Positions 5,868-22,362 of a stretch of 32,000 nucleotides of DNA are shown here, piece after piece. This stretch comes from Candidatus Saccharimonadota bacterium (GTDB lineage: Bacteria; Patescibacteriota; Saccharimonadia; Saccharimonadales; Saccharimonadaceae). The stretch lies in NCBI GenBank assembly GCA_025349965.1, contig CP075337.1:360001-392000 (forward strand), given 5' to 3'. Position 1 is the first letter of the stretch. Each line of letters starts with the position of its first letter. A program made the translations under genes and the position numbers. The notes beneath the pieces were generated by a model. It did no database searches and was not told where the DNA came from. It saw only the letters and a list, made by a program, of their open reading frames with translations.

Positions 5868-6185
5868 ATGGCAAAAGAAGAAGGACTTAAGATCCGTATT
5901 CGCCTTAAGGCATACGATCACAAGGTAATTGACCAGTCTGCAAAGCAGATTATCGACACAGCAATTCGCACCGGAGCGTCTATTGCTGGTCCAGTGCCTC
6001 TTCCAACACGTCGCAGTACTTTCACGGTTGTGAAGTCACCACACGTGTACAAGAAGGGTGGTGAAACATTTGAGATGCGCGTACACAAGCGTCTTATTGA
6101 CATCACTAACGCGACTCCAAAGACTATTGATAGTCTTCAGAACCTCAGCCTCCCGGCTGGCGTTGATGCTGAAATCCGTATGTAA
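5868..6185 (+). CDS. rpsJ: 30S ribosomal protein S10
   Basis: 105-aa [29 protein letters not shown]...[24 protein letters not shown] is typical uS10. Confidence 0.97.
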
Positions 6186-6233
6186 TACGGTTCAGTTTAC
6201 TTGTGCGAAACGTGCTAGTATGCTGAAAATTCT

Positions 6234-6267
6234 TAAAAAATACCCCTCATCTACGAGGGGTATTTTG
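6234..6267. terminator. bidirectional rho-independent terminator (rpsJ on +, KA-rich gene on -)
   Basis: Perfect 9-bp stem ATACCCCTC/GAGGGGTAT (6240-6263), flanked by an A-run on the left and a T-run on the right. It lies between two convergent genes. Confidence 0.7.
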
Positions 6268-6280
6268 ATATATCCGTATA

Positions 6281-6649
6281 CTACAGGGCGGCGTCTATAA
6301 GTTGTTGGTCGAGGAGATTAATAACCTCGTACTGAGTTTTAAGGATCCAAAGTTGAGCAAAAATAATTACGCTTACAAGAATAAGCCAGTATACGGTTTG
6401 ACGTGTAATTGCGAAACTCTTAAATGGCGGTTGATCACCGGCGACGTGGAATGAGCGCATCTTGGCCGTCTTTTTAGCGGCTACCTTGCGGGTTGTCGGT
6501 GCCTTCCGAGCGGTAGAGTTAGCTGTACGCTTAGCGACTGGTTTTTTAGCTGTTGATTTAGCAGCTACCGTCTTTTTAACTGGTGCCTTCCGAGCAGTAG
6601 ACGCCTTAGATGTCGTCTTTTTTGCTGCTGGTTTTTTCGTTGTTGCCAT
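6281..6649 (-). CDS. membrane-anchored Lys/Ala-rich (histone H1-like) basic protein
   Basis: 122-aa ORF. The N-terminal ~65 aa are K/A/T/P low-complexity with an internal repeat (STARKAPVKKTVAAK / STARKAPTTRKVAAK). A single hydrophobic helix VYWLILVSVIIFAQLWIL lies near the C-terminus. AGGGG SD sits 5 nt upstream of the ATG. Confidence 0.7.
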   Translation of the reverse strand: MATTKKPAAKKTTSKASTARKAPVKKTVAAKSTAKKPVAKRTANSTARKAPTTRKVAAKKTAKMRSFHVAGDQPPFKSFAITRQTVYWLILVSVIIFAQLWILKTQYEVINLLDQQLIDAAL

Positions 6650-6753
6650 AGATGCCCCTATATAACTACATATGGTAGATTAATAAATCTTATGCTTAGA
6701 GTATGACAAAGAATAGTAAAAAACACAAGGGGAATGCGACCCCATAGGGCTTG

Positions 6754-6762
6754 TGGTATACT
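6754..6762 (+). promoter_or_regulatory. putative extended -10 promoter of the pilin-RCC1 gene
   Basis: CTTGTGGTATACT, with TGgTATACT at 6754-6762. This is nearly identical to the fusA promoter string CTTGTGGTATAAT. Confidence 0.35.
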
Positions 6763-6795
6763 AGCAGTAATAAATGAGCGACAAAAGGGGTTGGT

Positions 6796-8358
6796 ATGCA
6801 TAGACGAATAGCACAAGGTTTCACTCTTGTTGAACTTATGATTGTCATTATAGTTATCGTCATCCTTGCTGTACTTGTCGGGGTTGGGTATAACGGTATT
6901 ATTGAAGGTGCTGGTGACCGGTCGCTCAAGTCGGATCTTCAGAGTGTTGAAGGGAAGATATCCCGGTATAAGGCCCAAAAAGGTGTGTACCCGGATACGT
7001 CCACGGCAAATGGGCTAGGACTCAATGTAAGCAATGATGCAACACTACTCTATCAAGGCGACGGCGGGTCTTGGTATTGCGCTTCGATTACATCCGCTGA
7101 TGGAACAACGACCTACAGTATAAGTGAAGAAGGTGTTATTCGCGATAAGAATTGCTCCTTACGGTGGAAAGCTGGTGATGATAGCCTCGGACAATTTTCT
7201 GTAGGAACGAACGGCTACGCGTGCGGTCTTGCTTTTGACGGCAAGGTGTACTGTTACGGCAATAATCTTAGTGGTGAGCTTGGTAACGGGGGAGGGTACT
7301 CGGGAGGGTTTGTTACTGCAGCCGTTGCGCAGGGCGCAATACCTGCTGGTGCCTCTCTAAAACAGGTGGCGACCGGGGGTAATTTCGCATGCGTACTAGC
7401 CTCAAACAATAAGATGTATTGCTGGGGTGGTAATTCATACGGACAACTTGGGGATAATACGACAACTCAACGAAAGACTCCGGTCGAGGTTCAGCAGGGG
7501 GCTATCCCTAGCGCTGCTACAATTAAACAGATTTTTGCAGGGCCGAACAATATGTGTGCATTAACGAATGACGGCAAGCTTTATTGTTGGGGGTATAATC
7601 TTGTCGGAGCTTTGGGTGACGGTACAACCACGAATAAATTAGTGCCTACTGCCGTATCTCAGGGCACAATGCCAGCTGGTGCGATTGTCCGGCAGGTCTC
7701 AATGAGTACTACTGTCACATGTGCTACCATCACCACGAGTGTTGATCTCTACTGCTGGGGTACGGGTGGATATGGGCAGCTAGGTAATAATGGGTATTCA
7801 TCCTCCTATACACCCTCGGTTGTATCACGGGGAGTAATGCCCGCCGGGGTGGCAATTGAACAGGTGGCTGTTGGCGACACTCATGTATGCGCCCTCCTTT
7901 CAAATAACGGACTTTATTGCTGGGGTACAAACGGAAACGGGCAAATTGGTGATGGTTCAACGACGAAGCGGATAGCGCCGACGGCAGTCTCTTTGGGTGT
8001 AATTCCTAGTTCGGTGAGTATTCGTCAAGTTGTGTCCGGAGGTAGCTACAGCTGCGCACTTGCATCGAATAAGGTTTATTGTTGGGGTAGAAATGATGTA
8101 GGGCAGTTAGGCAATGGGTCTAGTGTCCCTGCCTCTCCGTACGGCCTCTTGACGCCTGTTGCGACAGTGCAGGGCGCGATGCCGGCTCAGGGTAAGATTC
8201 AGAAGCTTGTCACCGTTCCAAATAATTTTGCGTCTACATGTGCAATTATGGATGATAGTTCGACATACTGCTGGGGAAGAAGCGCTGGATATTACGAGAA
8301 CGGCGCATATGAGGATAGGTTGGCGCCGGTGCGTATCCGGATGAATACGAGCTTGTGA
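6796..8358 (+). CDS. type IV prepilin-like N-terminus fused to a seven-bladed RCC1-repeat beta-propeller
   Basis: 520-aa ORF. MHRRIAQG|FTLVELMIVIIVIVILAVLV is a class III signal peptide with Glu at +5. It is followed by a pilin-head-sized region with C95/C120, then seven units of ~55 aa ending in YC(W/Y)GxNxxGQLGxG. AGGGG SD lies 5 nt upstream; the stop codon is TGA. Confidence 0.85.
   Translation: MHRRIAQGFTLVELMIVIIVIVILAVLVGVGYNGIIEGAGDRSLKSDLQSVEGKISRYKAQKGVYPDTSTANGLGLNVSNDATLLYQGDGGSWYCASITSADGTTTYSISEEGVIRDKNCSLRWKAGDDSLGQFSVGTNGYACGLAFDGKVYCYGNNLSGELGNGGGYSGGFVTAAVAQGAIPAGASLKQVATGGNFACVLASNNKMYCWGGNSYGQLGDNTTTQRKTPVEVQQGAIPSAATIKQIFAGPNNMCALTNDGKLYCWGYNLVGALGDGTTTNKLVPTAVSQGTMPAGAIVRQVSMSTTVTCATITTSVDLYCWGTGGYGQLGNNGYSSSYTPSVVSRGVMPAGVAIEQVAVGDTHVCALLSNNGLYCWGTNGNGQIGDGSTTKRIAPTAVSLGVIPSSVSIRQVVSGGSYSCALASNKVYCWGRNDVGQLGNGSSVPASPYGLLTPVATVQGAMPAQGKIQKLVTVPNNFASTCAIMDDSSTYCWGRSAGYYENGAYEDRLAPVRIRMNTSL
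7186..8340 (+). repeat. seven tandem RCC1-like coding repeats (~165 nt each)
   Basis: The protein-level period is 54-63 aa, with YCYG at 152 and YCWG at 208, 263, 319, 374, 428 and 491. The recurring DNA string is TAYTGYTGGGG. Confidence 0.8.
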
Positions 8359-16176: not shown

Positions 16177-16815
16177 ATGGAGGATGGTGTAGTGTCAGAA
16201 GGCAGATATGTTGTTATTGAGGGTACAGATGGGACGGGAAAGTCAACGCAAGTAGAGCGGCTCGCTCAAAGATTAGAGGGGCTTGGTCATGAGGTGGTGC
16301 AATTTCATGAACCCGATGGCACCGAGATATCTGCAGAGATACGAACAATTATTAAGAATGGCGACCTAGCGCGCACTGCGTTTACGAATCTGCTTTTGTT
16401 TAGTGCGGCCCGCCGCGAGAATTGGCTACAAACAGGACTTCCGACTCTAGAGCGCGGTGGCTGGGTGGTCTCGGCGCGAGATTACACGTCAACACTGGCG
16501 TATCAGGGGTATGGCGAAGGGCTCGACCTCAGGGTGATTTCACGCATTACTGCACTTTCAACTGACGAGCGATACATGAGTCCTGATAAAATGATTATTC
16601 TCGATCTTGATGATGAAGTAGAGCGAAAGCGCCGCATTGAGTCTCGTGGTGAACTTGAAAACCCAGACACTTTTGAATCGAAGGATGCTGAATTTCAACT
16701 TCGTGTGCAAGAAGCGTATAGGGATATTGCGAGGAAGCGTGGCTTGGCTGTGGTTTCTGCGTCTCGTACGGCCGAATTGGTTGAGGCTGACATTTGGCGT
16801 ATTGTAAATAGCTAG
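16177..16815 (+). CDS. tmk: thymidylate (dTMP) kinase
   Basis: YVVIEGTDGTGKSTQ is the P-loop, with FHEPDGTEISAEIR and a DRY-like ARDYTSTLAYQG. The start may instead be the GTG at 16192, which lies 7 nt after GGAGGA. Confidence 0.88.
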   Translation: MEDGVVSEGRYVVIEGTDGTGKSTQVERLAQRLEGLGHEVVQFHEPDGTEISAEIRTIIKNGDLARTAFTNLLLFSAARRENWLQTGLPTLERGGWVVSARDYTSTLAYQGYGEGLDLRVISRITALSTDERYMSPDKMIILDLDDEVERKRRIESRGELENPDTFESKDAEFQLRVQEAYRDIARKRGLAVVSASRTAELVEADIWRIVNS

Positions 16816-16967: not shown

Positions 16968-17501
16968 ATGAGTCGAATCGGAAAACTACCTATTGACGTA
17001 CCTGCTGGTGTGACAATTACGGTCGGCGAGAGTGAAATTACTGTCGAGGGTGCCAAGGGCAAACTCGTCGTTCCTCACCTCAGCGACGTAACCGTAGCTG
17101 TTGACGCTGGTGTTGCGACAGTAACACGTAACAACGACGAACGCATTGCAAAGGCACAACACGGCCTTCAGCGTTCACTCCTTAACAATGCTGTTGAGGG
17201 AATCACTAAGGGCTTTGAAAAGAAGCTTGAAGTAAACGGTGTTGGATTCCGCGTAGAAGGCGGCGGCCAAGAGCTTAAGATGGCACTTGGTTTTTCACAC
17301 CCAGTTATCTACAAGGCAAAAGAAGGTGTACAGCTTGAAGTAAACAAGATGGAAATCACTGTAAAGGGTATCGACAAGCAACTTGTTGGCCAGACTGCAG
17401 CTGAAATCCGTGCACTTAAGAAGCCTGAACCATACAAGGGTAAGGGTATTAAGTATGCTGACGAAGTTATTCTTCGCAAGGCTGGAAAGGCAGGTAAGTA
17501 A
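16968..17501 (+). CDS. rplF: 50S ribosomal protein L6
   Basis: 177 aa. MSRIGKLPIDVPAGV... Confidence 0.97.
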   Translation: MSRIGKLPIDVPAGVTITVGESEITVEGAKGKLVVPHLSDVTVAVDAGVATVTRNNDERIAKAQHGLQRSLLNNAVEGITKGFEKKLEVNGVGFRVEGGGQELKMALGFSHPVIYKAKEGVQLEVNKMEITVKGIDKQLVGQTAAEIRALKKPEPYKGKGIKYADEVILRKAGKAGK

Positions 17502-18461: not shown

Positions 18462-18943
18462 TGACTAAGTACAACGAACTTCTCGTAGAAGCTAATAAGA
18501 GCAAAAAGCGCGTTGGTCGTGGTATTGCTGCTGGTCAGGGTAAAACTGCTGGTCGCGGTACTAAGGGTCAAAAGTCTCGTACTGGTAAGAAGCTTAACGC
18601 TACTTTCCAGGGTGGACAACGCGGTATTGTACTTTCTGTGCCAAAGGCACGCGGGTTTAAGAGCCTTCGTACTCCTGCGCAGGTTGTGTACCTCGATACA
18701 CTGAACGGTTTTGAAGGAAAGACTGTTGATAACATGACTCTCTTTGAACAGGGATTCATCGCAACTCCATTCCACACCGTTAAGGTAATTACTCGTGGTG
18801 AACTTTCTAAGGCACTTACCGTAAAGGTAGCTGGTGCAAGTAAGTCATCACAGGAAGCGATTGCAAAGGCTGGCGGTTCTTTTGAAAAGACTGCTGTGCC
18901 GCTTAAGCAAAGCGCAAAGGCTGCGGAAGCGGCTGAGAAGTAA
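18461..18943 (+). CDS. rplO: 50S ribosomal protein L15
   Basis: 160 aa. KKRVGRGIAAGQGKTAGRGTKGQKSR. It starts at the rpsE stop (TAATG), leaving no room for rpmD. Confidence 0.96.
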   Translation: MTKYNELLVEANKSKKRVGRGIAAGQGKTAGRGTKGQKSRTGKKLNATFQGGQRGIVLSVPKARGFKSLRTPAQVVYLDTLNGFEGKTVDNMTLFEQGFIATPFHTVKVITRGELSKALTVKVAGASKSSQEAIAKAGGSFEKTAVPLKQSAKAAEAAEK

Positions 18944-18968
18944 GGCTGAACAGGGAAGTTTCCTTGTT

Positions 18969-19003
18969 AAAAATACCCCGTCGGCTTGACGGGGTATTTT
19001 TTT
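18969..19003 (+). terminator. rho-independent terminator after rplO
   Basis: Perfect 10-bp stem ATACCCCGTC/GACGGGGTAT (18973-18997) followed by T7. Confidence 0.8.
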
Positions 19004-19090
19004 ATTGACGTAATTGCTGTCTTGGTGGTGGTGTTCTCTTTTTTTGCTAAATCAAAATATATATAAAAAGTGTATGTATTACGATTATAG

Positions 19091-19113
19091 AAAAAACTCC
19101 ACAAGGGTGGAGT
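19091..19113 (-). terminator. rho-independent terminator for the small high-GC ORF
   Basis: Stem ACTCCAC/GTGGAGT (19096-19113) preceded on the + strand by A6, which gives a U-run after the hairpin on the minus strand. Confidence 0.6.
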
Positions 19114-19132
19114 TCGGGCGACTTTGAATGTG

Positions 19133-19179
19133 CCTTTGTGGCCCCTACCGCTTACTACAGCGTATCGGGGCCACAAAGG
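19133..19179 (-). other. 13-bp perfect inverted repeat immediately 3' of the small high-GC ORF
   Basis: CCTTTGTGGCCCC (19133-19145) pairs with GGGGCCACAAAGG (19167-19179) across a 21-nt loop that has further internal pairing. It lies 14 nt downstream of the ORF stop on the minus strand. Confidence 0.6.
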
Positions 19180-19192
19180 GTGTCGTTGGAGG

Positions 19193-19456
19193 TTAGGCGA
19201 CCCCGAGCGCCGAGTGGCGAACACTCTCGCGGATGGGGCCATCGTTCGGATCGAGCTCGAAGCTCGAGACCTCGTTGAGCCGACGCGTATTGGTGGCGAT
19301 CTTGTGCGTCTCGCCCTTGCCGATGTGGCGGACCTTCCGGTCGTGGCTGTCCTGCTTCTTGCGCAGGTTGCCACGGTTGCGTCCGTGCTTGGTGTAGGCG
19401 GGTTTCTCGCTCAGGGCGTGGCGCGACTCTCGTGCGGTCTTATCGGTACGCGACAT
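19193..19456 (-). CDS. small (87 aa) highly basic orphan protein encoded in a high-GC island
   Basis: The hand-counted third-codon-position G+C (GC3) in this frame is 74/87 (85%). GAGAGAGGAAG SD lies 6 nt upstream of the ATG, and a hairpin plus terminator lie downstream. The sequence MSRTDKTARESRHALSEKPAYTKHGRNRGNLRKKQDSHDRK... matches no family I recognise. Confidence 0.65.
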   Translation of the reverse strand: MSRTDKTARESRHALSEKPAYTKHGRNRGNLRKKQDSHDRKVRHIGKGETHKIATNTRRLNEVSSFELDPNDGPIRESVRHSALGVA

Positions 19457-19645
19457 TGCGCACTTCCTCTCTCATTGTTGATGTACAACGACAGTTCACT
19501 CTTTAATGAACGTAGAATAGATTATAGCATAAATATCAAATAAAGTCAATATCTACCCCTTGAATAAAAAATAGTGTAGTATAGAAGAAGTAATTGAGTA
19601 ATCTTTTCGGGGTATTTCTGAAAAAACTAAAAGGTTGAGTGACTG

Positions 19646-21061
19646 ATGAACTGGAAAACAATTTTCAAATCATTTAAGAATCGAGATATGCAGCGTCGAC
19701 TGCTAACTGTTCTTGGTATTATTATTGCATATCGTCTGTTGGCGCATGTTCCCGTGCCTATTGCAGAGCCAACGCAGCTACGTGAAGTAATTAATGGCGT
19801 TATTGGTGGAACTGACTTTGGTGGATTCCTCAATCTTCTTTCGGGTGGTGCGCTTGCGAGCTTCTCTATTGTGCTCGTAGGACTTACCCCGTTCATTACG
19901 GCGTCTATTATCTCGCAACTCCTCACCAAGGCTATTCCGCGCCTTGAAGAACTCAATAAAGACGGTGAATCAGGACGACGCAAGATTAACCAGTGGACTC
20001 GTCTTGCAACAGTACCGCTCGCGATTGTCCAGTCGATTGCCTTTATCTTTATCCTTCGCCAGACAGTGCTAGCGGGCAATACAACAGTGCTTGCAGACCC
20101 GACTGCGCTTGAATGGATTGTATCTGTTGGAACTATGACCGCAGGTGCCGTGCTTCTTATGTGGCTCGGCGAGCTCATTACCGAACAGGGTGTTGGTAAT
20201 GGTATTAGCCTTCTTATCTTCGCGGGTATTATTAGCCAGCTTCCATCTATGCTTTCGTCATTCGGCACGGCGTTATTTGACACAAGCAAGGGTGCCCTTA
20301 ATGTTTTCAACTGGTTTACCGTTCCTGTTAATCCCACTATATTCTGGGTAGTTCTGGCGCTGTTATTGGTGTCGCTGATGTTGCTCTATTTCCTTGTGAA
20401 GATTAATGAAGCACAGCGTGTCATTACTATTAATTACGCGAAGCGTGTTCATGGCAATAGTAGCTATGGTGGCGTAAAAAGCATCCTTCCAGTGAAGCTT
20501 ATCGCAGCTGGTGTGATTCCTGTGATTTTCGCGGTTGCGTTCTTATCACTCCCCGCATTCATTGGACAGGTATTGAAGGCGTCCGGCAACGAAGCGTATG
20601 CCGCGCTCGCGAACAACCTCATTACATGGTTCCAGGCTCCAAACCCAGGTGCATTTACCGGGTCTGAATGGCAGGCATTTATCTATCCAGCAACATACTT
20701 TGTTCTTGTTCTTGTATTTACCTACTTCTATACGGGTATTGTATTCAACTCAAGTGAAATCTCTGAGAATCTTCAAAAGCAAGGCGGGTTTATTGAAGGT
20801 GTTCGGCCTGGAAAGCAAACCGAGAAATACCTCTCTGGTACCATGAATCGTCTCCTTCTTTTCGGATCAGTCGTACTTGGGTTCATTGCAGTTACGCCGT
20901 TTATTATTGAGTACTTCCTTGCGCAGTTCGCTGGAATTACCAATACGAATCTTTCAATTGGTGGTACTGGACTCTTGATTGTTGTGTCTGTAGGCCTTGA
21001 ATCACTTCGTCAAATCAACTCGCGTGCGTTGATGGTGACGTATGATGATTATGACCGGTAG
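19646..21061 (+). CDS. secY: preprotein translocase subunit SecY
   Basis: 471 aa with 10 hydrophobic segments. RLLTVLGIIIAYRLLAHVPVP...GELITEQGVGNGISLLIF is typical SecY. Confidence 0.97.
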   Translation: MNWKTIFKSFKNRDMQRRLLTVLGIIIAYRLLAHVPVPIAEPTQLREVINGVIGGTDFGGFLNLLSGGALASFSIVLVGLTPFITASIISQLLTKAIPRLEELNKDGESGRRKINQWTRLATVPLAIVQSIAFIFILRQTVLAGNTTVLADPTALEWIVSVGTMTAGAVLLMWLGELITEQGVGNGISLLIFAGIISQLPSMLSSFGTALFDTSKGALNVFNWFTVPVNPTIFWVVLALLLVSLMLLYFLVKINEAQRVITINYAKRVHGNSSYGGVKSILPVKLIAAGVIPVIFAVAFLSLPAFIGQVLKASGNEAYAALANNLITWFQAPNPGAFTGSEWQAFIYPATYFVLVLVFTYFYTGIVFNSSEISENLQKQGGFIEGVRPGKQTEKYLSGTMNRLLLFGSVVLGFIAVTPFIIEYFLAQFAGITNTNLSIGGTGLLIVVSVGLESLRQINSRALMVTYDDYDR

Positions 21062-21152
21062 GGAATAATCCTACAAACGCGACTCGTCCGGTATGATTAT
21101 GACCGGTAGGGAATAATCCTACAAACGCGACTCGTCCGGTATGATTACGACC
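21045..21152. repeat. perfect 48-bp tandem duplication (2.25 copies) spanning the secY stop codon
   Basis: 21045-21092 is identical to 21093-21140 (ATGATTATGACCGGTAGGGAATAATCCTACAAACGCGACTCGTCCGGT). A 12-nt partial third copy follows at 21141-21152 (ATGATTACGACC, 1 mismatch). Confidence 0.95.
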
Positions 21153-21185
21153 ACTAACGGGCACTTGCAATTCATGGCATTCTCG

Positions 21186-21215
21186 ATCCGCTCCACTGGA
21201 GCGGATTTACTTTTT
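21186..21215 (+). terminator. rho-independent terminator downstream of secY and the repeats
   Basis: Stem ATCCGCTCC/GGAGCGGAT (21186-21206, 3-nt loop) followed by TTTACTTTTT. Confidence 0.65.
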
Positions 21216-21224
21216 AGGAAAAAA

Positions 21225-21233
21225 TGATATACT
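21225..21233 (+). promoter_or_regulatory. putative extended -10 promoter for the 152-aa high-GC ORF
   Basis: TGaTATACT at 21225-21233. The 8-bp hairpin CACCTATC/GATAGGTG (21249-21270) lies in the leader. Confidence 0.3.
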
Positions 21234-21303
21234 ATAGTTATTCTAGTACACCTATCTCCGCCGATAGGTGGAGAGATGAATTTGACAGAGGATGTGATGT
21301 GGT

Positions 21304-21762
21304 ATGCCGTCAATTGACGAACGTATTCGACGCGAGGCGAGAAGGCACCGTCGGCGAATCGCACAGGAGAAAGAGCTTGCTCATCAGGCGCTTCGTGAAT
21401 TCGTTTACGATGATGTCCAGAACATGAGGGGGCGCTCCATCGATCTGGGTATCGAGGTGGACGCTGCGGCTCACTGGCTGCACATGAAGAACTACGACGA
21501 TACCTACAAGGACTGGAGTCCACGCTCGAAGCAGCAACGGACGCGTCTGCGGATTGAGTCTCTGCTTGAACTCGCCGAGAGCACGCCGGTGCTCCTCAAG
21601 GAGTATGAGCAGGCGCTGAGCCGCTACTTTCCGATCCGTTGGAAGGGATACGTCTGGAATCCGCAACTCATCATCGTCGACTTGCCATCCGGCAAGCAGC
21701 GTATCTCTATGGAGTACCGCTGGCGACGACAGAAGAGTGCGAGTGCGGACAATGCCGGCTAA
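21304..21762 (+). CDS. orphan 152-aa Arg-rich protein in the second elevated-GC island
   Basis: This is the first ATG after the in-frame TGA at 21295-21297. The hand-counted GC3 is about 105/152 (69%) in this frame. The overlapping minus-strand ORFs look like shadow frames. I recognise no family. Confidence 0.55.
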   Translation: MPSIDERIRREARRHRRRIAQEKELAHQALREFVYDDVQNMRGRSIDLGIEVDAAAHWLHMKNYDDTYKDWSPRSKQQRTRLRIESLLELAESTPVLLKEYEQALSRYFPIRWKGYVWNPQLIIVDLPSGKQRISMEYRWRRQKSASADNAG

Positions 21763-21768
21763 CGTGGT

Positions 21769-21795
21769 ACCGGTAGGGTCAGAATTCATCCTCTG
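21769..21795. repeat. third copy of the ACCGGTAGGG core, with a partially similar extension
   Basis: ACCGGTAGGG at 21769-21778 is identical to 21054-21063 and 21102-21111. The following GAATTCATCCT resembles the GAATAATCCT that follows the other two copies. Confidence 0.6.
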
Positions 21796-21799
21796 TCCC

Positions 21800-21839
21800 T
21801 ATCCTTAAGCTATCAATGCAATTTGATGGTTTAAGGATA
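21800..21839 (+). other. 17-bp stem hairpin that is complete only in plus-strand RNA
   Basis: TATCCTTAAGCTATCAA-TGCAAT-TTGATGGTTTAAGGATA. Two stem positions are G-U wobbles in the + transcript and would be A-C mismatches in the - transcript. No U-run follows. Confidence 0.5.
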
Positions 21840-21865
21840 TGCACCCTGAGCTTATAGTGTCTGGG

Positions 21866-21893
21866 TTGACGCCATAGGTTCATTTGCTACAAT
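21866..21893 (+). promoter_or_regulatory. strong sigma70-type promoter upstream of the infA-rpmJ-rpsM operon
   Basis: TTGACG (21866-21871), a 16-nt spacer, then TGcTACAAT (21885-21893). A second TATAAT lies at 21974-21979. Confidence 0.5.
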
Positions 21894-21994
21894 AAGTCTA
21901 ACCAAATCCCGTATGGCCGAAAAAGTCGGAGGGGATATTCTTGAAAAGACTTTACGTACACTTATTTTTGGTGTATAATCTACTACTGTAACTT

Positions 21995-22225
21995 ATGGCT
22001 AGTTCTAAAGAGGTAATCAAGATGAAAGGCAAGGTAGTGGAAGCACTGCCTAATACTCAATTCAAGGTAGAACTCGAGAATGGCCTGAGCATCATCGCGC
22101 ACATTAGCGGAAAAATGCGTAAAAACTATATTCGCTTAGTGCCTGGTGATAAGGTGGACGTAGAGATGACCCCTTATGATCTCACAAAGGGACGAATCAC
22201 GTACCGCCATAAAGACCAATTTTAA
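21995..22225 (+). CDS. infA: translation initiation factor IF-1
   Basis: 76 aa. [20 protein letters not shown]...[21 protein letters not shown]. Confidence 0.97.
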
Positions 22226-22245
22226 CTGGAGGAATTCTTGAACTC

Positions 22246-22362
22246 ATGAAAGTTCGTGCGAGTGTAAAGAAAATCAGTCCAGATGATCAGTTGGTGCGCC
22301 GCAAGGGGCGCCTCCGTGTCATCAACAAGAAAAAACCTAAGAATAAGCAAAGGCAGGGTTAA
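22246..22362 (+). CDS. rpmJ: 50S ribosomal protein L36
   Basis: This 38-aa ORF is absent from the track because it is too short. Hand translation gives [45 protein letters not shown] is upstream, and the position between infA and rpsM is conserved. Confidence 0.9.

What the first reader, a model, noticed from the sequence alone, without database searches (positions are those of the whole stretch)
21054..21795. Second elevated-GC orphan gene, bounded by ACCGGTAGGG direct repeats, occupies the place of adk-map after secY
Seen: the 10-mer ACCGGTAGGG, which contains the secY TAG stop, occurs at 21054, at 21102 and again at 21769, 7 nt after the stop of the 152-aa ORF. The flanks are also similar (GGGAATAATCCTAC versus GGGTCAGAATTCATCCTCT). 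A given 10-mer is expected about 0.06 times by chance in a 32-kb window counting both strands. The bracketed ~0.66 kb carries a terminator-like hairpin, a TGaTATACT promoter and an Arg-rich ORF. Its G+C is 204/360 = 57% (hand count of 21361-21720) and its GC3 is about 69%, both above the local background. No integrase or transposase is present. Established: direct repeats that duplicate the 3' end of a conserved gene are the classic signature of site-specific integration. secY is normally followed by adk, map and infA. Inference: this is a small non-autonomous insertion or a remnant of an integrative element that targeted the secY 3' end. It may be associated with loss or relocation of adk and map. 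Together with the rplO-secY island, secY is flanked on both sides by foreign-looking single-gene inserts.
Basis: partly seen in the sequence, partly recalled or inferred. Interest (0 to 1): 0.66.

Follow-up and report, generated by a model that had tools for sequence, protein, structure and literature searches.

The report
Variable-site gene with self-pairing mRNA
The "repeat-bracketed foreign gene" after secY is not an integrated element: it is a small Saccharibacteria-specific gene that always sits just upstream of infA and whose mRNA ends pair with each other, next to an unrelated tandem repeat that copies the end of secY.

Summary
The sequence facts hold: ACCGGTAGGG occurs three times, and there is a terminator, a promoter and a 152-aa ORF with 57% G+C. 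The att-site reading does not hold.

Copies 1 and 2 lie in a 48-nt tandem repeat (2.2 units) that starts inside secY. The same kind of post-stop module follows secY in at least 17 other Saccharibacteria contigs. It also follows rpsJ, in degenerate form in this window. It consists of a conserved loop flanked by an inverted and a direct copy of the host gene's last 15-20 nt.

Copy 3 is the 5' arm of a conserved 3'-UTR hairpin. That hairpin is found downstream of every homologue of the ORF, including genomes whose secY end is different.

The ORF is not an orphan. A profile search finds 49 clusters, and every context examined is secY ... homologue ... infA on the same strand, always with raised G+C. 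The closest relatives (SecY 91-92% identical) have an empty gap. The secY-infA gap ranges from 53 to 3810 bp with unrelated cargo, and never holds adk or map.

The mRNA's Shine-Dalgarno region (21284-21294) is complementary to a 3'-UTR segment (21787-21797). The pairing co-varies and is predicted in 10 of 12 homologues, which suggests icaR-like self-repression. The protein's function is unknown.

The parts
19646..21061 (+). secY coding sequence. Its last codons (Y D D Y D R stop) contain copy 1 of ACCGGTAGGG.
   Evidence: ORF list. 74-92% protein identity to SecY of 80 Saccharibacteria loci.
21045..21160 (+). Post-stop tandem module. It has two exact 48-nt units (21045-21092 and 21093-21140) and a diverged partial third unit (21141-21160, which reads Y D Y D H stop). 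Each unit holds an inverted partial copy of the secY end (ATAATCCTAC), the loop AAACGCGACTCGTCCG, and a direct copy of the secY end. It carries 10-mer copies 1 (21054-21063) and 2 (21102-21111).
   Evidence: for the repeat. Homologous modules in L005, L012, L013, L018, L041, L042, L054, L073 and L088-L096. The inverted-copy/direct-copy hairpin is 76.9% paired, with 9 of 16 pairs changed on both sides.
21185..21217 (+). Intrinsic terminator of the secY transcription unit: a 10-bp stem (GATCCGCTCC / GGAGCGGATT) followed by a T run.
   Evidence: The hairpin is also present in the fold of 21030-21215.
21206..21233 (+). The ORF's own promoter: TTTACT, 16 nt, then TATACT with an extended TG.
   Evidence: A promoter followed by a 5'-UTR hairpin lies at the equivalent place in all homologues examined except L097/L098, whose gene starts 22 nt after the preceding gene, and the 5'-truncated L017 copy.
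21249..21270 (+). 5'-UTR hairpin, CACCTATC / GATAGGTG.
   Evidence: Read from the sequence. Relatives have a different hairpin at the same position.
21284..21294 (+). Shine-Dalgarno region GACAGAGGATG. It overlaps an AUG-UGA start-stop pair at 21292-21297. It is the 5' partner of the long-range helix.
   Evidence: Pair probabilities of 0.97-0.999 with 21787-21797 in the fold of 21240-21846.
21304..21762 (+). Gene for a 152-aa basic protein, a member of a small family restricted to Saccharibacteria.
   Evidence: AlphaFold2 model with pLDDT 86.3. N-terminus conserved as M-x-S-[IV]-D-x-R-I in the type-A homologues (WIN, L003, L025, L015).
21772..21803 (+). 3'-UTR hairpin A. GGTAGGG (21772-21778, inside 10-mer copy 3 at 21769-21778) pairs with CCCTATC (21797-21803). 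Its loop and the first base of its 3' arm carry the anti-SD segment CATCCTCTGTC (21787-21797).
   Evidence: Alignment of 13 loci: 83.7% paired, 4 pairs changed on both sides, 0 of 500 shuffles reached the score.
21798..21841 (+). 3'-UTR hairpin B. It cannot form at the same time as hairpin A because both use CCCTATCC.
   Evidence: RNAalifold consensus of 18 pairs, 15 of them with compensatory changes. Inverted repeat I1.
21866..21979 (+). Two tandem promoters upstream of infA: P1 (TTGACG-16-TGCTACAAT, 21866-21893) and P2 (TTTACG-17-TATAAT, 21951-21979). They mark the downstream limit of the variable site.
   Evidence: Conserved in relatives with and without the ORF.
21995..22225 (+). infA. It lies 225-261 bp downstream of the stop of every family member measured.
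6186..6236 (+). Degenerate second copy of the post-stop module, directly after rpsJ (5868-6185). It reads ACGGTTCAG, then TTTAC TTGTGCGAAACGTGCTA GTATG, then CTGAAAATTC.
   Evidence: It aligns with the intact rpsJ-linked module of L092.

Best explanation
The interval holds three separate things, not one insertion.

(1) secY ends in a 48-nt tandem repeat. This is a module recurrent in Saccharibacteria, placed between a stop codon and the terminator. It has a conserved GC-rich loop of about 17 nt, flanked on one side by an inverted copy and on the other by a direct copy of the host gene's last 15-20 nt. The direct copies invite slippage. Slippage explains the exact extra units and why the downstream copy keeps tracking lineage-specific changes in the secY end. 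(The anatomy is shown. The slippage mechanism is inferred.)

(2) The secY terminator follows.

(3) Then comes a self-contained, single-gene unit with its own promoter, 5'-UTR hairpin, Shine-Dalgarno site, a 152-aa basic protein and a structured 3' UTR. This unit belongs to a fast-evolving family specific to Saccharibacteria, and it always sits immediately upstream of the infA promoters. Its 3' UTR can form two mutually exclusive hairpins. An 11-nt 3'-UTR segment is complementary to the gene's own Shine-Dalgarno region, so the full-length mRNA most likely folds back and masks its ribosome-binding site, as in icaR. (The complementarity, the covariation and the predicted fold are shown. The effect on translation or stability is inferred.)

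The third ACCGGTAGGG is simply the 5' arm of 3'-UTR hairpin A. Its identity with the secY end in this genome is coincidental.

The gene's patchy distribution reflects a variable site between two highly conserved genes. The likely causes are repeated loss and replacement, probably through homologous recombination in the conserved flanks. (This last step is inferred.)
For: Tandem module:
- Exact units and TRF result.
- The same design occurs after secY in L005, L012, L013, L018, L041, L042, L054, L073 and L088-L096, with 1 to at least 3 units.
- It occurs after rpsJ in L092 and, in degenerate form, in this window.
- The hairpin formed by the inverted and direct copies is 76.9% paired, 9 of 16 pairs changed on both sides, 0 of 500 shuffles.
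- The module is also present at an otherwise empty site, L096 (gap 273 bp), and is absent from the other family-bearing loci.

Third copy:
- The alignment of the 3' flanks of 11 family loci shows the element is conserved. L003 has ACCGGGAGGG.
- Hairpin A shows covariation. Hairpin B has 15 of 18 pairs compensated.

Gene family:
- Homologues at 26-41% identity, all between secY and infA.
- 12 proteins found by the word-indexed profile search, and 49 clusters by the exhaustive search.
- The contexts of P0002, P0004, P0010, P0012 and P0020 are all syntenic.
- The stop-to-infA distance is 225-261 bp in all of them, and G+C is raised by 3-12 points in all.

5'-3' pairing:
- 11 nt of exact complementarity.
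- 78.9% of cells paired, 7 pairs changed on both sides, covariation score 0.220 against 0.146 for shuffles, 0 of 500.
- Pair probability 0.97-0.999 in the 607-nt fold.
- The same helix appears in the minimum-energy fold of 10 of 12 homologues.

Variable site:
- The gap ranges from 53 to 3810 bp and holds sortase, pilin-like, CopY/CopA and many unrelated small ORFs.
- L001 and L002 are empty.
- No adk or map anywhere in these loci.
Against: - No transcript data exist. The promoter, the 3' end and the co-transcription of the SD and the 3'-UTR segment are all predictions.
- Two homologues do not show the long-range helix: L097 has a different SD, and L082 pairs only partly.
- I chose the register of the SD/3'-UTR alignment from the motif, which favours pairing.
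- Raised GC3 that persists in a resident gene is not explained.
- L025 carries a type-A ORF, SD and anti-SD inside type-B UTRs and a type-B genome. That hints at cassette exchange with breakpoints near the inverted repeats, which simple vertical descent does not predict.
- An exact 10 of 10 match between the secY end and the hairpin arm is improbable a priori (about 0.001 for the gap). It is accepted as chance only because relatives already have 8-9 of 10 at that position without a matching secY end.
Confidence: 0.7

Rival explanations
1. A small non-autonomous integrative element, or the remnant of one, inserted into the secY 3' end by site-specific recombination. The ACCGGTAGGG copies are attL and attR.
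For: Three exact copies, one overlapping the secY stop. The gene is absent from the closest relatives L001 and L002. G+C is raised. The secY 3' end is also duplicated in other genomes.
Against: Two of the copies come from a 48-nt tandem repeat that exists independently of this gene. The distal copy is an arm of a conserved hairpin supported by covariation, and it is present where secY ends differently. In no relative with a duplicated secY end is there a second copy beyond the cargo. There is no integrase. The family sits at one fixed position and strand, at a constant distance from infA.
Confidence: 0.06
2. The ORF together with its SD and anti-SD segments is a mobile or exchangeable cassette. 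Its boundaries are the 11-bp inverted repeats GACAGAGGATG and CATCCTCTGTC, which would act as terminal inverted repeats or recombination sites rather than as RNA partners.
For: The inverted repeat is perfect over 11 bp. In type-A genes, GACAGAGGATGTGA is identical across genomes whose upstream 5' UTRs are unrelated. L025 combines a type-A ORF, SD and anti-SD with type-B flanks and a type-B SecY.
Against: There is no target-site duplication next to the repeats and no transposase. Every copy seen is at the same locus. G-U pairs occur in the helix (L016, L024), which fits sense-strand RNA pairing and not DNA repeats. Conservation extends beyond both repeats, into the 5'-UTR hairpin and hairpins A and B. 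The RNA fold predicts the helix strongly.
Confidence: 0.1
3. The 48-nt module is itself a small mobile or self-copying element. It would insert at the ends of genes and template its arms on the local sequence. The duplication of the secY end would then be a long target-site duplication.
For: The same loop (GTGCGCGGCTTGTCCCG) sits after two different genes, secY and rpsJ, and in each case the arms match the local gene end. The loop is nearly identical across lineages whose SecY proteins are only 76-80% identical. Exact multi-unit arrays occur in three independent assemblies.
Against: Only two target genes are known. A strict 22-nt search of the metagenome collection gave 8 secY sites and 1 rpsJ site. 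There are none in viral contigs and no other site in 728 kb of held loci. The direct copy shares a 3-nt deletion relative to secY in most lineages, which points to a single ancient origin followed by vertical descent. No enzyme is associated with it.
Confidence: 0.2

Closest known systems
icaR mRNA of Staphylococcus aureus, where the 3' UTR pairs with the Shine-Dalgarno region (PMC3868564). A related case is the 5'/3'-UTR interaction of Bacillus subtilis hbs mRNA (PMC5737220).
   Same: An anti-SD-like, C/U-rich segment in the 3' UTR of a single-gene mRNA is complementary to that mRNA's own ribosome-binding site several hundred nucleotides upstream. The predicted effect is to mask the SD.
   Different: The organism is from a different phylum and the gene is unrelated. 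Here the partner segment lies within two mutually exclusive hairpins, and the pairing is supported by covariation across a gene family. No experimental evidence exists here for repression or for RNase III cleavage.
Fold-back inhibition in hok/sok-type mRNAs, where the fbi element pairs with the tac element (from my own knowledge of type I toxin-antitoxin systems).
   Same: The 3' end of the full-length mRNA pairs with the 5' translation-initiation region and keeps the message inactive.
   Different: Hok-type products are hydrophobic peptides of about 50 aa with an antisense RNA partner. This product is a soluble, basic 152-aa protein, and no antisense RNA is evident.
REP/BIME elements of proteobacteria (from my own knowledge).
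   Same: These are short imperfect palindromes placed right after stop codons and before terminators. They occur as arrays in alternating orientation separated by short linkers, and their copy number changes between strains.
   Different: In REPs the stem sequence is conserved genome-wide. Here the loop is conserved and the stems are copies of the local gene's 3' end. Only two sites are known, and no RAYT-type transposase was looked for outside the window.
Genomic islands integrated at the 3' ends of tRNA, tmRNA or protein genes, which have att direct repeats that rebuild the gene end.
   Same: The 3' end of a conserved gene is duplicated as a direct repeat, and accessory DNA lies downstream.
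   Different: The duplicated copies are 48 nt apart with no cargo between them. There is no integrase, and there is no copy at the distal cargo boundary in any relative.
Variable accessory loci held between conserved flanking genes and exchanged by homologous recombination, such as capsule loci between dexB and aliA in pneumococci (from my own knowledge).
   Same: Two highly conserved genes (secY and infA) flank a site whose content differs between close relatives.
   Different: The cargo here is one to three small genes, mostly of unknown function. Recombination has not been demonstrated.

Membership tests
Site-specific integrative element (att-flanked island) | An integrase or recombinase gene in or next to the element. 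| tested here: not met
   The ORF and the overlapping ORFs have no Pfam, PHROG, PADLOC or NCBIfam recombinase hit. Of the window's other ORFs, only 10 of the larger ones were scanned against Pfam; none of those is a recombinase.
Site-specific integrative element (att-flanked island) | Direct repeats at both boundaries of the inserted DNA, collapsing to one core in empty sites. | tested here: not met
   Copies 1 and 2 are units of a tandem repeat. Copy 3 lies inside the gene's conserved 3' UTR. Relatives with a duplicated secY end have no distal copy. The empty sites L001 and L002 are too diverged to show a junction.
Site-specific integrative element (att-flanked island) | The same cargo is found at other genomic locations or in mobile contexts. 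| tested here: not met
   Every context examined is secY ... gene ... infA. No phage family matched.
TIR transposon or MITE | Terminal inverted repeats. | tested here: met
   An 11-bp perfect inverted repeat, 21284-21294 and 21787-21797.
TIR transposon or MITE | A target-site duplication flanking the repeats, and multiple dispersed copies. | tested here: not met
   The flanks AATTT and CCTAT are not duplicated. All copies lie at one locus.
icaR-type 5'/3'-UTR pairing | A 3'-UTR segment complementary to the mRNA's own SD region. | tested here: met
   11 nt exact. Predicted pair probability 0.97-0.999. Present in the minimum-energy fold of 10 of 12 homologues.
icaR-type 5'/3'-UTR pairing | The pairing is maintained in evolution. 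| tested here: met
   7 pairs changed on both sides. Covariation score 0.220 against 0.146 for shuffles, 0 of 500. The register was chosen by me.
icaR-type 5'/3'-UTR pairing | Both segments lie on one transcript, and the pairing lowers translation or stability. | not testable with these tools
   No RNA data are available. The promoter and the absence of a terminator before 21787 are predictions.
hok/sok-like type I toxin-antitoxin | A small hydrophobic toxin peptide and a cis-antisense RNA. | tested here: not met
   The product is 152 aa, basic and mostly helical with a C-terminal beta hairpin. No antisense promoter lies inside 21233-21866 among the promoter-like sites listed.
REP/BIME | A palindromic unit directly after a stop codon, in arrays of variable copy number. 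| tested here: met
REP/BIME | A conserved stem sequence repeated at many loci in the genome. | tested here: not met
   The stems copy the local gene end and only the loop is conserved. There are two sites in the 32-kb window and none elsewhere in 728 kb of loci. The rest of the genome was not available.
Known protein families (Pfam, NCBIfam, PHROGs, PADLOC, PDB, BFVD) | A significant sequence or fold match. | tested here: not met
   The best hits are noise: DUF6259 at E 0.043, SpoT model at 19.5 bits against a cut-off of 947, FliG at E 0.02. Foldseek's best E-values are 0.33 (PDB) and 0.039 (BFVD), with TM-scores of 0.34 or lower.

The most novel reading that the evidence does not exclude
The 48-nt post-stop module may be a previously undescribed kind of repeat. 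It has a conserved loop of about 17 nt, and its two arms are an inverted and a direct copy of the last 15-20 nt of whichever gene it follows. It is present after both secY and rpsJ in this genome and is scattered across Saccharibacteria. It could be a self-templating mobile 3'-end element. Alternatively it could be an RNA switch that senses translation termination: the gene end and its downstream copy compete for the same complementary strand, so a terminating ribosome would flip the fold. Separately, the gene family could encode a new RNA-binding or ribosome-associated factor that is regulated through pairing of its own mRNA ends.
Probability: 0.25. Interest if true: 0.75.

Novelty: new variant of a known kind. 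Interest (0 to 1): 0.45.

Why it matters
This result removes a false lead: there is no integrative element targeting secY here.

It puts three testable observations about Saccharibacteria, a phylum of tiny epibiotic bacteria with few characterised genes, in its place:
- The junctions on both sides of secY inside the ribosomal-protein gene cluster are hot spots for accessory genes across the lineage.
- One occupant is a conserved, fast-evolving family of small basic proteins. Its mRNA appears to pair its 3' UTR with its own ribosome-binding site. This is a rare case where such bacterial 5'/3' pairing is supported by covariation across a family.
- A short repeat that copies the end of its host gene recurs after secY and rpsJ, and its origin is unexplained.

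None of this changes what is known about core functions. The protein's role is still unknown.

Tried and rejected
- **Rfam.** The gathering-threshold search of the whole window found only two tRNAs. Permissive searches of 18900-22300 and of five module-bearing loci found nothing credible.
- **Protein libraries for the ORF.** Pfam, PHROGs, PADLOC and NCBIfam gave nothing above noise. I reject the SpoT hit (19.5 bits against a cut-off of 947) and the FliG hits (E 0.02) as chance.
- **PDB by profile.** Nothing found.
- **Foldseek on a confident model.** No match with E of 0.001 or better in PDB or BFVD.
- **Other small ORFs at this site.** Profile-profile comparison of L012, L024, L013 and L005 with the family gave E 0.02-0.28. 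All hits except L005's fall at the same W-L-x(4)-[FY]-[DE]-x-T-[FY] motif. This is suggestive but not established.
- **Viral contigs.** The strict loop pattern gave 0 hits. The 16-mer and the 3'-UTR motif gave chance-level hits with unrelated flanks.
- **Cognate against non-cognate duplex energies for SD and 3' UTR.** These do not discriminate, because the core is conserved. I used the pair counts instead.
- **Direct copies of each ORF's last 14 nt downstream of its stop, across the window.** Only secY scores. The rpsJ module was found by eye through its homology with L092.
- **The 87-aa ORF of the rplO-secY island.** No homologue was found.
Full report
**1. Observation**

The window is part of the ribosomal-protein gene cluster of a Saccharibacteria (TM7) genome. 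SecY is 74-92% identical to that of 80 Saccharibacteria assemblies. The layout is secY at 19646-21061, a 152-aa ORF at 21304-21762 and infA at 21995-22225, all on the + strand.

ACCGGTAGGG is exact at 21054, 21102 and 21769. With one mismatch allowed there are 5 hits against 0.83 expected. The terminator-like hairpin (21185-21207 plus a T run) and the TGnTATACT promoter (21206-21233) are found by the scan. The ORF has 57.1% G+C and GC3 of 0.686, against 0.461 and 0.444 for secY.

The chance estimate assumed three independent copies, and that assumption fails. 21045-21092 and 21093-21140 are identical 48-nt units. TRF reports 21045-21152, period 48, 2.2 copies, 98% matches.

**2. Copies 1 and 2: a post-stop module that recurs in the lineage**

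I read the DNA after the secY stop in all related loci. The same design appears in L005, L012, L013, L018, L041, L042, L054 and L073. A pattern search of metagenome contigs for the conserved loop found nine more (L088-L096).

The design has four parts in order:
- the end of the gene;
- a short spacer;
- an imperfect inverted copy of the gene end;
- a conserved loop (GTGCGCGGCTTGTCCCG, bracketed by TAC and GTA), followed by a direct copy of the gene's last 15-20 nt including a stop codon.

In the window the loop is AAACGCGACTCGTCCG and the inverted arm is shortened to ATAATCCTAC.

Copy number varies between assemblies. L088 has at least three exact 49-nt units, L096 has two exact 53-nt units, L073 and L091 have two diverged units, and most others have one. 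On a fixed-register alignment, the inverted and direct arms form a hairpin around the loop. It is 76.9% paired, 9 of 16 pairs changed on both sides, and 0 of 500 shuffles reached the score.

Three further points matter:
- In L092 the same loop follows rpsJ (S10), and the arms copy the rpsJ end instead.
- The window's own rpsJ (5868-6185) is followed by a degenerate version of that rpsJ module at 6186-6236.
- The module is independent of the ORF. It occurs at an otherwise empty site (L096, gap 273 bp) and next to unrelated cargo. It is absent from every other locus that carries the ORF family.

The downstream copy follows lineage-specific changes in the secY end: CCAATAG in L018, TCAGTAA in L089 and GACCGGTAG here. 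Yet it shares a 3-nt deletion relative to secY in most lineages. I read this as one old origin followed by slippage between the direct copies. Slippage both amplifies units and keeps the copies alike. That step is inference.

No relative with a duplicated secY end has another copy at the far side of its cargo.

**3. Copy 3: an arm of a conserved 3'-UTR hairpin**

I aligned the DNA from the ORF's stop to infA in 11 loci that carry a homologue. The block ...GGGTGGGG-CCAGAGTT-CATCCTYTGT-CCCCATCC... is conserved, followed by a long hairpin and then two promoters. The window's ACCGGTAGGG (21769-21778) is the first arm of that block.

L003 has ACCGGGAGGG and L013 has GCGGGTAGGG at the same position. 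Their secY genes end in GACCGCTAA and GACTGATAA. The arm is therefore older than, and independent of, the window's secY end.

- Hairpin A (21772-21778 with 21797-21803) is 83.7% paired across 13 loci, with 4 pairs changed on both sides and 0 of 500 shuffles.
- Hairpin B (21798-21841) is the RNAalifold consensus, with 18 pairs of which 15 have compensatory changes.

A and B share the CCCTATCC segment, so they exclude each other.

**4. The ORF is a member of a family fixed at this position**

The single-sequence search found only the query. tblastn against the 80 secY loci found homologues at 26-41% identity in L003, L015, L016, L017 and L025. All lie between secY and infA on the + strand.

- A profile search gave 12 proteins, all unnamed or "hypothetical".
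- An exhaustive profile search of 1.84 billion representatives gave 49 clusters of 103-229 aa.
- The contexts fetched for P0002, P0004, P0010, P0012 and P0020 are again syntenic. Where the upstream DNA is held they read secY, then zero or one small ORF, then the homologue, then infA.
- The distance from stop to infA is 225-261 bp in all. G+C is 3-12 points above the locus in all, with GC3 of 0.54-0.80.

The alignment has invariant Trp, Asp, Arg, Tyr and Pro positions, and in the type-A homologues (window, L003, L025, L015) a conserved N-terminus. This settles the coding strand and the start codon. The 159-aa antisense ORF (21310-21789) is what a GC-rich gene usually carries on its opposite strand.

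The L017 copy has lost its 5' third, so it is a decaying copy.

**5. The site is variable across the lineage**

Over the loci with both genes, the secY-infA gap runs from 53 to 3810 bp. Its contents include:
- a sortase in 16 ORFs of 15 loci;
- a 191-aa unknown on the minus strand in the oral clade;
- a CopY-like repressor with a 748-aa ORF that reads like a copper P-type ATPase (identified by eye, not scanned), in 4 loci;
- pilin-like proteins;
- many small ORFs without relatives.

In the clade around the window, most of these small ORFs also have raised G+C.

The two closest relatives, L001 and L002 (SecY 92% and 91%), have 139-bp and 102-bp gaps with neither module nor ORF. Their intergenic DNA is too diverged to define junctions.

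On a SecY similarity tree the family appears in at least three clades. ORF identity tracks SecY identity only loosely (Spearman 0.37). There are two ORF types. L025 carries a type-A ORF, with the matching SD and anti-SD, inside type-B UTRs and a type-B genome. This hints at exchange.

The rplO-secY gap is variable too, at 92-1857 bp with unrelated cargo.

Pfam shows neither among the window's larger ORFs that I scanned. The absence of adk and map after secY is therefore a property of the lineage.

**6. How the gene is probably controlled**

The 11 nt GACAGAGGATG (21284-21294), which holds the SD, is the exact reverse complement of CATCCTCTGTC (21787-21797) in the 3' UTR. Relatives keep the complementarity while changing the sequence:
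- GACAAAGGAT with ATCCTTTGTC in type B;
- AACAGAGG with CCTCTGTT in L015;
- 14 nt in L084;
- GGATATATA with TATATTC in L016, including a G-U pair.

On a fixed-register alignment 78.9% of cells pair, 7 pairs changed on both sides, and the covariation score is 0.220 against 0.146 for shuffles (0 of 500). Slid registers pair at only 41-60%. I chose the register, which favours the result.

Folding the predicted transcript 21240-21846 puts all 11 pairs in the minimum-energy structure, with probabilities of 0.97-0.999. The same long-range helix is in the minimum-energy fold of 10 of 12 homologues. The exceptions are L082 and L097.

The best-supported mechanism is that the full-length mRNA masks its own ribosome-binding site through its 3' UTR. 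Hairpins A and B would set whether the masking segment is available. The complementarity, the covariation and the predicted fold are shown. The transcript ends and the effect on translation are inferred.

**7. The protein**

AlphaFold2 with the 12-sequence alignment gives a confident model (pLDDT 86.3, pTM 0.76). It has a long basic N-terminal helix (residues 4-47), four further helices (52-108) and a C-terminal beta hairpin (116-142). Foldseek finds nothing with E of 0.001 or better in PDB or BFVD, and the top-ranked matches have TM-scores of 0.34 or lower. Sequence libraries give only noise.

An arginine-rich helix and a position next to infA make an RNA-binding or ribosome-associated role a reasonable guess. 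It is only a guess.

**8. Rivals**

- The att-site model fails on the points in sections 2-4. I give it 0.06.
- A cassette bounded by the 11-bp inverted repeats is kept alive by L025 and by the identical GACAGAGGATGTGA in front of unrelated 5' UTRs. Against it, there is no target duplication, no transposase and no second locus, and the G-U pairs and the fold favour RNA pairing. I give it 0.1.
- The module could itself be a mobile or self-templating element. This is possible because one loop serves two genes. Against it, only two targets are known and the shared 3-nt deletion argues for one old origin. I give it 0.2.

**9. Comparison with known systems**

The gene's control resembles the icaR mRNA of S. 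aureus (PMC3868564) and the 5'/3'-UTR interaction of B. subtilis hbs (PMC5737220), both found through. By analogy it also resembles fold-back inhibition in hok mRNAs. It is not a member of those systems.

The module resembles REP/BIME arrays in position and array behaviour. It fails their defining feature, a conserved stem repeated at many loci.

**10. Verdict**

The integrative-element interpretation is supported only in that the gene is accessory and the site is variable.

What is there is a new variant of known kinds of thing. It is a lineage-specific accessory gene in a variable site, with an icaR-like self-pairing mRNA, sitting next to a tandem repeat of unexplained origin that copies the end of its host gene. 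My interest score is 0.45.

Noticed in passing
window 6186-6236: Directly after rpsJ (5868-6185) lies a degenerate copy of the same post-stop module seen after secY. It aligns with an intact rpsJ-linked module in metagenome contig L092 and is followed by an intrinsic terminator near 6236-6265.
   Followed up: partly
window 19094-19549, minus strand: The GC-rich island (60-64% G+C) between rplO and secY looks like a minus-strand transcription unit. It has a promoter TTGACT-17-TGCTATAAT (19549-19521), an 87-aa basic ORF (19456-19193), a perfect 13-bp hairpin (19133-19179) that contains AGCGGTAGGG, and a terminator (19115-19094). The ORF has no homologue in the 5.8-billion-protein search. The rplO-secY gap is also variable in relatives (92-1857 bp, unrelated cargo).
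   Followed up: partly
window 21292-21297: An AUG-UGA start-stop pair overlaps the Shine-Dalgarno region of the ORF. It is conserved in all type-A homologues (window, L003, L013, L025, L015, L099) and absent from type B.
   Followed up: no
window 21866-21979: Two tandem promoters lie upstream of infA, separated by about 70 nt. The upstream one and the spacer are conserved in relatives with or without the ORF (L004, L005, L006, L011-L013). They are missing in the closest relatives L001 and L002, which keep only the proximal promoter.
   Followed up: partly
window 16177-16815: A thymidylate kinase gene (Pfam PF02223, E 3e-35) sits inside the ribosomal-protein gene cluster, upstream of the ORF at 16968-17501.
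   Followed up: no
window 6281-8358: Accessory genes lie between rpsJ and the next ribosomal-protein genes. One is a minus-strand ORF (6281-6649). The other is a 520-aa protein with an N-terminal pilin-type methylation motif and RCC1 repeats (6796-8358). The rpsJ junction therefore looks like another variable site.
   Followed up: no
L025:6100-6720, compared with L016, L082, L084 and L086: The SecY of L025 is 89-91% identical to that of the type-B genomes, and its 5' UTR and hairpin B are type B. However, its ORF, SD and anti-SD are type A (27-30% identity to type-B proteins, 37-41% to type A). This suggests an exchange of the coding core together with its two pairing segments.
   Followed up: partly
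L017:2540-2925: The family member in L017 has lost roughly its first 85 codons together with the SD. The conserved 5'-UTR hairpin is fused directly to the middle of the ORF, so this is a decaying copy that NCBI annotates as a 99-aa protein.
   Followed up: partly
L003, L004, L005, L010-L013, L024 and L050, in the secY-infA gaps: Most small unrelated ORFs at this site in the window's wider clade also have raised G+C (0.51-0.60) and GC3 (0.60-0.81) over their loci. Several share the promoter-hairpin-TTGACAGGAGG leader design. Cargo in other clades (sortase, pilin-like, the 191-aa ORF) has ordinary composition.
   Followed up: partly
window 21310-21789, minus strand: A 159-aa antisense ORF spans the whole gene. 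Similar antisense ORFs occur in L015 and L025. It is most simply a by-product of the high GC3 of the sense frame.
   Followed up: no
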